Part shown: positions 14,236 to 15,404 of the stretch, in pieces
Position numbering within the stretch: position 1 is the first letter of the stretch
Layout of the letters: the number at the start of each line of letters is the position of its first letter
NCBI RefSeq assembly: GCF_009914755.1
Contig: NC_060933.1
DNA length: 64,000 nt
Direction: 5' to 3' (one strand)
Source: the human T2T-CHM13v2.0 reference genome, Homo sapiens
The notes under the pieces: generated by a model
Seen by the model: only the letters and a program-made list of their open reading frames with translations
Told to the model about the DNA's origin: nothing
Database searches by the model: none
Made by a program: the position numbers and the translations under genes

Positions 14236-14558
14236 CAACACTTTTACAAAACTAGAACTCCTCTCTCCTCAGCTCCTCACAAGACATTTATCATTCTCCA
14301 AAGTGCTCACTTTGGTAAGACTAATGGTTAGTGAAACTAACTAACTAATAAATCGAGTCTAAGTTCTTGTCAGCATATGATATATGATGGACTTTCCATA
14401 CTAAAACTATTCTATGATAGATGGTTTTTCTCTCGCATCAGATTGGTAACCTATGGCAAATGTTTTAGTGTATGATTCCAAATGGCATGTGGAGACAAGA
14501 GCAGGAGTGCTGAGAGAAAATTAATTTCTACATATCCTAAAGGAACCTAGATCTAGAA

Positions 14559-14842
14559 TTTTTCATGATGGAGTCTCACTCTGTTGCCCAGACTGGAGTA
14601 CAGTGGCGCGATCTCCACTCACTGCAAGCTCTGCCTTCCGGGTTCACGCCATTCTCCTGCCTCAGCCTCCCGAGTAGCTGGGACTACAGGCGCCCGCCAC
14701 CACGCCCGGCTAATTTTTTGTATTTTTTAGTAGAGAGGGGGTTTCACCCTGTTAGCCAGGATGGTGTCGATCTCCTGGCCTCGTGATCCACCCGCTTCGG
14801 CCTCCCAAGTGCTGGGATTACAGGCGTGAGCCACTGCACCCA
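14559..14842 (-). mobile_element. AluY, left member of the inverted pair
   Basis: Y diagnostics (ctgcaagctc, gttcacgccattctcc), very short tail. Confidence 0.93.
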
Positions 14843-14876
14843 GGAACACGTCGTACTGTTAATATTCTAGGTTCCT

Positions 14877-15187
14877 GGCCCGGCGTGGTGGCTCACGCCG
14901 GTAATCCCAGCACTTTGGGAGGCCGAAGCAGGTGGATCACAAAGTCAGGAGATCGACACCATCCTGGCTAACAACGTGAAACCCCGTCTCTACTAAAAAA
15001 TACAAAAAATTAGCGGGGAATGGTGGAGGGCGCCTGTAGTCCCAGCTACTCGGGAGGCTGAGGCAGGAGAATGGCGCGAACCCGGGAAGCAGAGCTTGCA
15101 GTGAGCCGAGATCGTGCCACTGCACTCCAGACTGGGCGACAGAACGAGACTCTGTCTCAAAAAAAAAAAAAAGAAAGAAAAAAAAAA
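14877..15187 (+). mobile_element. AluY, right member of the inverted pair
   Basis: Y diagnostics, A tail. Confidence 0.93.
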
Positions 15188-15404
15188 CAGTATAATGTGA
15201 TGGTCAGTTTCTTAAGGTAACTGGTTCATGGTTCAAACAATGGTATGGCCAGACTATATCCAGTGACAGGAAAAGACACTCACTGTGGCACATCATCACC
15301 TCTCCCTCTTCCTGCTCCCAGTCGAATAAAAGAGTCGAGGATAGCAGATTTTCTTGTCAGCAGCAATTAACAACTACCTCATGGCAAAGTTAAAAACAAA
15401 AACA

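What the first reader, a model, noticed from the sequence alone, without database searches (positions are those of the whole stretch)
14541..15199. Head-to-head AluY pair with swapped TSDs: signature of an Alu-mediated micro-inversion
Seen: two inverted AluYs about 35 bp apart, neither with a direct TSD as it stands. The left flank aggaacctaga[tctaga]at (14541-14559) matches the reverse complement of spacer 14864-14876, which is next to the other Alu. The right flank aacagtataatgtg (15186-15199) matches the reverse complement of 14847-14860 (aacagtacgacgtg), differing only at CpG positions. Flipping the spacer gives each Alu a normal TSD. The two Alus also share non-consensus bases (atcgaCacc, ccgaAgc, a 6-A first linker run). 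Inference: recombination or hairpin-driven conversion between the arms inverted the centre and homogenised the copies. Known: such close inverted Alus are unstable, depleted in the genome, and form ADAR substrates.
Basis: partly seen in the sequence, partly recalled or inferred. Interest (0 to 1): 0.75.

Follow-up and report, generated by a model that had tools for sequence, protein, structure and literature searches.

The report
Flipped spacer between two inverted Alus
Two Alu repeats that landed head to head at one cutting site in an NR6A1 intron have had the 33-base piece between them turned around, a small and rare example of an already known kind of Alu-driven inversion.

Summary
Left Alu (-) 14559-14843, spacer 14844-14876 and right Alu (+) 14877-15187 are as described. 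Neither Alu has a direct target-site duplication (TSD). The reverse complement of the spacer reads X (matches left flank 14541-14551 at 11/11) followed by Y (matches right flank 15186-15199 at 11/14, with all three mismatches at CpGs of the spacer copy). Chance is excluded by shuffles.

Context comes from 118 other head-to-head Alu pairs fetched from the same genome, 93 of them usable. In that class the spacer is normally TSD-left plus TSD-right in direct orientation, meeting at a central T-run|A-run: 42 of 93 are significantly direct and none is inverted-only. This locus has the same build, mirrored.

Best reading (0.7): two Alu insertions at one TT|AA site on opposite strands, then an exchange between the arms that flipped the centre.

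"Homogenised" is only partly right. The arms are 88-91% alike, no closer than unrelated copies. They do share three rare variants whose combination occurs nowhere else in the 3.1-Gb genome.

"Depleted" is wrong for this spacer length, according to Cook 2011.

No outgroup genome was available. This is a known kind (Lee 2008), of modest interest.

The parts
14541..14559 (+). Outer copy of target segment X (aggaacctaga..at), with a 6-nt insertion tctaga at 14552-14557. The insertion creates the 10-nt palindrome ctagatctag (14547-14556).
   Evidence: I11: 11/11 against 14866-14876. The insertion was read by eye.
14559..14843 (-). Left Alu, antisense on the + strand. It has a 5-T remnant of the A-tail (14559-14563) and a body at 14564-14843. 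Its 5' end starts at about Alu position 3.
   Evidence: Identity to the right arm is 247/282.
14844..14846 (.). Three bases (gaa) between the left Alu's 5' end and the Y copy. No TSD accounts for them.
14847..14860 (-). Inner copy of target segment Y, inverted (cacgtcgtactgtt is the reverse complement of aacagtacgacgtg). It keeps both CpGs.
   Evidence: I12: 11/14 against 15186-15199.
14861..14876 (-). Inner copy of target segment X, inverted (aatattctaggttcct). It abuts position 1 of the right Alu.
   Evidence: (I11).
14859..14862 (.). Central TT|AA step where the X and Y copies meet. This is the inferred L1-endonuclease nick position for both insertions, on opposite strands.
   Evidence: In the wider class, TTAA occurs in 53 of 65 spacers at median relative position 0.50.
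14877..15187 (+). Right Alu, sense. The body is 14877-15158 and the A-rich tail is 15159-15187.
15186..15199 (+). Outer copy of target segment Y (aacagtataatgtg). Both CpGs have decayed.
   Evidence: I12.
14840..14847 (.). Left half (ccaggaac) of an 8-nt inverted repeat that straddles the spacer edges. Its partner is gttcctgg at 14871-14878.
   Evidence: 8 nt here. In 93 other pairs the maximum is 7 (1 pair), and 6 pairs reach 6.
14723..14796 (-). Left-arm sites of the three shared rare variants: 14796, 14766, and the T-run 14723-14728.
14927..15000 (+). Right-arm sites of the same three variants: 14927, 14957, and the A-run 14995-15000.

Best explanation
Two separate Alu retrotranspositions used the same TT|AA step of one target, which read aggaacctagaatatt|aacagtacgacgtg.

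One insertion was primed from the bottom strand. It gave the + Alu with TSD Y of 14 nt. The other was primed from the top strand. It gave the - Alu with TSD X of 16 nt. The result was a head-to-head pair whose spacer was X+Y in direct orientation.

Later, an exchange between the two inverted arms turned round everything between the exchange points. This could have been homologous recombination with crossing-over, or a template switch between the arms during replication. Each Alu now sits beside the reverse complement of the other's inner TSD copy.

The same event, or an earlier one, left a patch of transferred sequence in the left monomers (Alu positions about 51-125).

Shown: the sequence geometry, the class norm and the unique shared variants.
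Inferred: the order of events, the exchange mechanism and its date.
For: (1) Geometry. The reverse complement of the spacer is X then Y. X matches the left flank next to the T-tail, and Y matches the right flank straight after the A-tail.

(2) X is 16 nt and Y is 14 nt, lengths within the 7-20 bp TSD range quoted in Lee 2008. They meet at TT|AA.

(3) Class norm. The pattern search found 1,207 head-to-head pairs with comparable spacing. Of 118 fetched, 93 were usable.
- 42 of 93 have significantly direct TSD relations.
- 2 of 93 have pI<=0.01, but both also have direct signal (pD 0.003 and 0.033).
- 50 of 93 are uninformative.
- In 16 of the first 65, both halves match directly, X on the left and Y on the right.
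- The inverted score here is 18, against a maximum of 15 in the 93 others.

(4) Partners in this class are unrelated copies. In 0 of 66 Alus was the partner the nearest neighbour. The class therefore arises by two separate insertions.

(5) Exchange between the arms. The G>A plus G>C combination occurs in 7 Alus genome-wide, 2 of them these arms. G>C plus the 6-A run occurs in 28, 2 of them these arms. No other place is on both lists.
- In 186 sampled Alus the three variants were seen 0, 2 and 3 times, against 40, 65 and 81 copies carrying the standard state.
- Of 8 other G>C carriers, 0 had the G>A.

(6) The TSD-mismatch criterion and the recombination model are published.
Against: - No outgroup or second human haplotype could be examined, so the un-flipped ancestor is inferred, not seen.
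- Both arms look like the same subfamily throughout, so chimerism, which the recombination model predicts, cannot be shown.
- Divergence inside the shared-variant stretch (about 8/77) is no lower than outside it. The transfer must therefore be old, and the three variants must already have been present in one arm.
- By overall non-CpG distance the arms rank only 3rd and 9th of 65 for each other. By shared rare variants they score 2, a value reached by 29 of 2,112 unrelated pairs.
- The left Alu's 5-T tail and the three unexplained bases at 14844-14846 are not predicted.
- The 8-nt inverted repeat at the spacer edges is larger than in all 93 comparison pairs and is also not predicted.
- The variant searches needed exact CpG-containing words, so a decayed source copy would have been missed.
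Confidence: 0.7

Rival explanations
1. Insertion-coupled flip. The inversion and the shared patch were made in one step, when the second Alu was inserted 30 bp from the resident inverted Alu. Either its nascent cDNA paired with the resident copy, or the short TSD-length strands released by the four nicks primed second-strand synthesis on the opposite ends. The swapped TSDs would then be the primary product, with no later recombination.
For: - Both first nicks fall on the same TT|AA.
- On paper, cross-priming by the released Y and rc-X strands gives exactly the present order, including filler at the Y-Alu junction (my inference).
- The shared variants look as old as the arms.
- Cook 2011's supplement raises a possible uncharacterised inverted insertion mechanism for this spacer class.
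Against: - If this were a regular outcome of same-site insertion, flipped spacers should be common. In fact 0 of 93 usable pairs are inverted-only.
- Partners in the class are unrelated copies of differing divergence.
- No precedent was found in two literature searches.
Confidence: 0.1
2. Spacer-only inversion without homologous exchange. The near-palindrome extruded as a hairpin or cruciform and was cut at the base of the loop. The 33-nt loop was then rejoined backwards through the 8-nt inverted microhomology ccaggaac/gttcctgg. Alternatively, a replication template switch used those 8 nt.
For: - The 8-nt edge repeat exceeds all 93 comparison pairs.
- Inverting any segment bounded within it reproduces the same sequence (read).
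- The region folds into an almost perfect hairpin (-543.9 kcal/mol, z -35, computed for RNA).
Against: - It does not explain the shared rare variants in the arms.
- It leaves the + Alu with a 5-nt filler and the - Alu lacking 4 nt at their 5' junctions. Exchange within the arms gives cleaner junctions.
- The 8-mer was noticed post hoc.
Confidence: 0.1
3. One Alu insertion, followed by a fold-back inverted duplication. A replication template switch copied the Alu together with adjacent target sequence in reverse. On this view X is not a TSD but part of the duplicated block.
For: - The unique shared variants would be inherited from the single parent.
- The very short T-tail of the left copy would follow from landing inside the A-tail.
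- Arm similarity continues about 6 nt into the spacer (alignment).
Against: - The two Alu 5' ends differ. One is full length and abuts rc-X. The other starts at about position 3 with extra bases. A 4-5 nt indel has to be added to reconcile them.
- X and Y have ordinary TSD lengths and meet at a central TT|AA exactly as in the 93-pair class. Under this model that is coincidence.
- The original left copy of Y must also have been deleted.
Confidence: 0.07
4. Chance resemblance. The flank-to-spacer matches are accidental and the TSDs have simply decayed.
For: - 50 of 93 comparison pairs show no significant TSD signal either way, so decayed TSDs are common.
- One foreign spacer scored 16 against these flanks.
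Against: - Shuffle tests gave 22/40,000 for the left match and 229/20,000 for the right.
- Both matches lie at the expected places and in the expected order.
- All Y mismatches are at CpGs.
Confidence: 0.02

Closest known systems
Retrotransposon (Alu) recombination-mediated inversion, RRMI (Lee et al. 2008, PLoS One 3:e4047, PMC2603318; passages read)
   Same: Two inverted elements of one family flank the inverted segment. Their TSDs no longer match as they stand but do match after reversal. The mechanism is recombination between the inverted copies. Most Alu cases in that study are under 1 kb.
   Different: - Those 28 Alu cases were found by human-chimpanzee comparison. Average inversion sizes by lineage were 769 and 1,934 bp.
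- Here the unique inverted segment is only 33 nt and the two Alus share one insertion site.
- No species comparison was possible, and chimerism of the arms cannot be shown.
Head-to-head full-length Alu pairs with 24-36 bp spacers (Cook et al. 2011, Mob DNA 2:10, PMC3215922; sections 6, 7, 13 and supplement part 2 read)
   Same: Head-to-head orientation, both Alus full length, and a 33-nt spacer. In my sample the spacer is built of two TSD-length halves around a central T|A step.
   Different: In the sampled members the halves are direct copies of the outer flanks (42 of 93 significant). Here they are reverse complements. The paper reports 3,464 such pairs and leaves their origin open. It does not describe spacer orientation.
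L1 twin priming
   Same: It gives a head-to-head inverted arrangement produced during target-primed reverse transcription.
   Different: Twin priming gives one TSD pair around the whole insert and two partial segments of one RNA. Here there are two full-length Alus, two different TSDs, and target sequence between them.
Inverted-repeat Alu pairs as double-stranded RNA substrates of ADAR (recalled; not tested)
   Same: The transcript strand of 14541-15199 folds into a hairpin of about 290 bp.
   Different: No editing data were examined. The flip of the loop does not change the stem.

Membership tests
Alu recombination-mediated inversion (RRMI, Lee 2008) | Two elements of the same family in opposite orientation span the two breakpoints. 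| tested here: met
   The arms are 250 nt at 89% complementary (I1).
Alu recombination-mediated inversion (RRMI, Lee 2008) | The TSDs of each element do not match as they stand, but match once the intervening segment is reversed. | tested here: met
   Direct score 9 (pD 0.82) against inverted score 18 (pI 0.003). Shuffle tests.
Alu recombination-mediated inversion (RRMI, Lee 2008) | The breakpoint elements are chimeras of the two parents. | tested here: inconclusive
   Both arms carry the same subfamily states along their whole length, so no switch point is visible. A patch of three shared rare variants is consistent with exchange.
Alu recombination-mediated inversion (RRMI, Lee 2008) | The un-inverted state is present at the orthologous locus of another species or haplotype. 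| not testable with these tools
   Only the window's own genome is held. The flanks are single-copy in it, so there is no paralogous empty site either.
Same-site head-to-head Alu pair (Cook 2011 class) | Head-to-head orientation, both Alus full length (>=275 bp), spacer 24-36 bp. | tested here: met
   285 nt and 282 nt plus tail, with a 33-nt spacer.
Same-site head-to-head Alu pair (Cook 2011 class) | The spacer equals the TSD of the left Alu plus the TSD of the right Alu, in direct orientation, meeting at a T-run|A-run. This feature was derived here from the sample, not from the paper. | tested here: not met
   Composition and the central TT|AA are met. Orientation is reversed. That reversal is the finding.
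Twin priming | One TSD pair flanks the whole inverted insert, with no target sequence inside it. | tested here: not met
   The outer flanks X and Y are different sequences, and the inner 30 nt are target-derived.
Fold-back inverted duplication by template switching | The arms derive from one parent, including adjacent flank, with microhomology at the junctions. | tested here: inconclusive
   For: unique shared variants and the 8-nt edge repeat. Against: the 5' ends are unequal, and the TSD-like halves are typical of the two-insertion class.

The most novel reading that the evidence does not exclude
The swapped TSDs and the shared patch were produced in a single step during insertion of the second Alu. 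Its reverse transcript, or the short strands freed by the nicks, engaged the resident inverted Alu 30 bp away. The flipped spacer would then be a primary insertion product. On this reading, same-site head-to-head Alu pairs occasionally arise by an undescribed insertion-coupled inversion, rather than by later recombination.
Probability: 0.1. Interest if true: 0.6.

Novelty: new member of a known kind. Interest (0 to 1): 0.33.

Why it matters
The locus itself is an intronic repeat rearrangement in NR6A1, with no sign of functional consequence. The hairpin stem is the same whichever way the loop lies.

Its value is as a worked example. An inversion of only 33 unique bases, hidden between two Alus, can be called from a single genome by the TSD-swap test. 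Alignment-based inversion catalogues are likely to miss events this small.

The comparison set also bears on an open remark in the literature. [quoted passage not shown] In my sample their spacers are two abutting TSDs around a T|A step. That is what re-use of one endonuclease site on the opposite strand would give.

Tried and rejected
- Paralogous empty site. The flanks 14236-14558 and 15186-15404 each matched only themselves in the genome, so the pre-insertion sequence could not be read from a paralogue.

- Shared subfamily as the source of the three shared variants. The combination occurs only in these two arms, and 0 of 8 other G>C carriers had the G>A. A decayed source copy is therefore not excluded.

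- General "twin" insertion, with both Alus of such pairs copied from one RNA. Partners were never nearest neighbours (0 of 66), and the other 32 partner pairs shared 0-1 rare variants.

- Overall arm identity as evidence of homogenisation. The left arm is the right arm's best match at 90.9%, but unrelated copies reach 89.2-90.1%.

- First boundary method. The local alignment mis-placed Alu ends by one monomer in several loci. I replaced it with anchored semi-global alignment.

- Rows dropped. 25 of 118 loci were excluded because one Alu was under 70% identical over the full reference arm, or the spacer fell outside 18-45 nt.

- Candidate flips. L029 and L109 reached pI<=0.01. L029 has stronger direct signal and an internal palindrome. 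The L109 spacer contains an Alu fragment. I did not count either as flipped.

- Sampling limits. The sample comes only from the first places listed on contigs C1 and C2. This locus is not itself in the pattern set, because its right-arm anchor carries a T>G change.

- Literature. Two searches found no paper that explains the 24-36 bp peak by same-site re-use, and none describing flipped spacers.

Full report
WHAT IS THERE

The region reads, left to right:
- flank ...cctaa aggaacctaga tctaga at
- five T
- an antisense Alu, to 14843
- a 33-nt spacer, gaa cacgtcgtactgtt aatattctaggttcct (14844-14876)
- a sense Alu from 14877, body to 15158
- a 29-nt A-rich tail
- flank aacagtataatgtg atgg...

The repeat finder reports three inverted matches without prompting:
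- the arms, 250 nt at 89% complementary
- 14541-14551 against 14866-14876, 11/11
- 14847-14860 against 15186-15199, 11/14

The three mismatches of the last pair are CG, CG in the spacer copy against TA, TG in the flank copy.

IS IT MORE THAN CHANCE

I scored the spacer against the 60 nt outside each Alu. The score is the best ungapped match, with +1 for a match, -2 for a mismatch, and A/T runs of 4 or more masked.
- In direct orientation the sum is 9 (pD 0.82).
- In inverted orientation it is 18 (pI 0.003, the floor for 300 shuffles).
- In 40,000 shuffles, a left match of 11 or more arose 22 times and a sum of 18 or more arose 8 times.
- A 14-mer with at most 3 mismatches to the right flank arose in 229 of 20,000 shuffles.
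- One of 130 foreign spacers reached a sum of 16 against these flanks, so the scoring has noise close to the observed value.

The matches also lie where TSDs should lie, beside the tails, and in the right order. Chance is not a serious explanation.

THE STRUCTURAL CLASS THIS LOCUS BELONGS TO

Cook et al. 2011 (PMC3215922; sections 6, 7 and 13 and supplement part 2) report that head-to-head full-length Alu pairs are enriched at spacers of 24-36 bp. They count 3,464 pairs in hg18, with a peak at 27-30 bp. This is the only spacer range where inverted pairs outnumber direct ones. They call it possible evidence of an uncharacterised insertion mechanism.

I sampled the class in the window's own genome.
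- A pattern of two conserved Alu words separated by 64-80 nt matched 1,207 places. The sub-ranges 64-69 and 75-80 gave 336 and 349.
- I fetched 118 of these places, all from the first places listed on contigs C1 and C2.
- 93 were usable. The other 25 had an Alu under 70% identical to the reference arm, or a spacer outside 18-45 nt.
- 42 of 93 have a significant direct relation between spacer and outer flanks.
- 2 of 93 reach pI<=0.01, but both also have direct signal and are explained by a palindrome or an Alu fragment.
- 50 of 93 are uninformative.
- None shows the inverted-only pattern. The highest inverted score among them is 15, against 18 here.

Further detail comes from the first 65 usable pairs.
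- In 16 of them both halves match directly: the left half to the left flank and the right half to the right flank, meeting at a T-run|A-run.
- TTAA occurs in 53 of 65 spacers, against 0.40 of shuffles, at median relative position 0.50.

So the normal spacer is TSD-left plus TSD-right. That is what two insertions at one T|A step on opposite strands would leave. I have not seen this interpretation in print in two searches. The endonuclease preference itself is quoted in Cook's supplement.

Partners in these pairs are unrelated copies. In 0 of 66 Alus was the partner the nearest neighbour at non-CpG sites. The insertions are therefore separate events.

THIS LOCUS AGAINST THE CLASS

Reverse-complemented, the spacer reads aggaacctagaatatt|aacagtacgacgtg (+ttc). 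That is a 16-nt X, a 14-nt Y and a central TT|AA, which is the class architecture exactly, but mirrored. Restoring it gives each Alu an ordinary direct TSD.

This is the published signature of retrotransposon recombination-mediated inversion (Lee et al. 2008, PMC2603318; passages). That study found 28 Alu cases between human and chimpanzee, most under 1 kb.

WERE THE ARMS HOMOGENISED

Not overall.
- The arms are 247/282 identical.
- The right arm matches the left at 90.9%, and matches three unrelated copies at 89.2-90.1%.
- Against a consensus of the 18 closest copies, the right arm has 16 private differences (11 at CpG) and the left has 17 (9 at CpG). Two further sites differ in both arms.

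They do share three non-CpG variants in the left monomer:
- G>A at Alu position 51
- G>C near position 88
- one extra A in the first A-run

Genome-wide, the first two co-occur in 7 Alus, 2 of them these arms. The second and third co-occur in 28, 2 of them these arms. No other place is on both lists. In 186 sampled Alus the variant states were seen 0, 2 and 3 times, against 40, 65 and 81 copies with the standard state. There is therefore no detectable subfamily, and the arms have exchanged sequence or share a parent.

The searches needed exact words that contain CpGs.

Divergence inside the shared stretch (about 8 of 77) equals that outside it. The transfer is therefore old.

MECHANISM

The best-supported account is two insertions at one site, followed by an exchange between the inverted arms that flipped the centre and left a conversion patch (0.7).

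Four details are not explained:
- the left Alu's five-base tail
- the three bases at 14844-14846
- the 6-nt insertion that makes a 10-nt palindrome in the left flank
- an 8-nt inverted repeat across the spacer edges, larger than in any of 93 comparison pairs

The last of these keeps alive a spacer-only inversion by loop cutting or template switching (0.1). An insertion-coupled flip (0.1) and a single-Alu fold-back duplication (0.07) are not excluded. The unequal 5' ends of the arms and the TSD-like halves argue against the fold-back duplication.

OTHER POINTS

The transcript strand folds into a near-perfect hairpin (-543.9 kcal/mol, z -35). It is therefore a plausible editing substrate. That is inference only.

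The flanks are single-copy, and no other genome was available. The decisive outgroup test remains to be done.

VERDICT

The inversion reading is well supported indirectly. It is a small, rare member of a known kind.

Noticed in passing
Loci L018-L135 (contigs C1 and C2 of the window's genome): Head-to-head Alu pairs with spacers of about 22-38 nt have spacers made of the left Alu's TSD plus the right Alu's TSD, in direct orientation, meeting at a central T-run|A-run. TTAA occurs in 53 of 65 spacers, and 42 of 93 pairs are significantly direct. This would explain the 24-36 bp head-to-head peak that Cook 2011 left open: re-use of one endonuclease site on the opposite strand.
   Followed up: partly
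window 14547-14556: A perfect 10-nt palindrome ctagatctag, created by a 6-nt insertion (14552-14557) in the outer X copy relative to the inner copy. It could be a slippage duplication plus a substitution, or a snap-back templated insertion.
   Followed up: no
window 14840-14847 and 14871-14878: An 8-nt inverted repeat ccaggaac/gttcctgg straddles both spacer edges out of register with the Alu ends. It is longer than in all 93 comparison pairs (maximum 7).
   Followed up: partly
window 14559-14563 versus 15159-15187: The tails are very unequal: five T on the left Alu against a 29-nt A-rich tail on the right. An unequal exchange within the tails is one possible cause. This was not tested.
   Followed up: no
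window 14847-14860 versus 15186-15199: The spacer copy of Y keeps both CpGs, while the outer copy has lost both through three transitions.
   Followed up: no
L029 (G000:C1:10624782-10624885): The right half of the spacer matches the right flank directly (13 nt). The left half matches the left flank in inverted orientation (9 nt, extendable by eye). The spacer also holds an internal palindrome. This may be a half-flipped case, or chance.
   Followed up: partly
window 15405-15700 and about 14131-14228: A third Alu (+) lies about 200 nt downstream and is 97% complementary to the left arm over 31 nt (I3). An old antisense Alu fragment lies about 330 nt upstream. The left Alu therefore has more than one inverted partner.
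   Followed up: no
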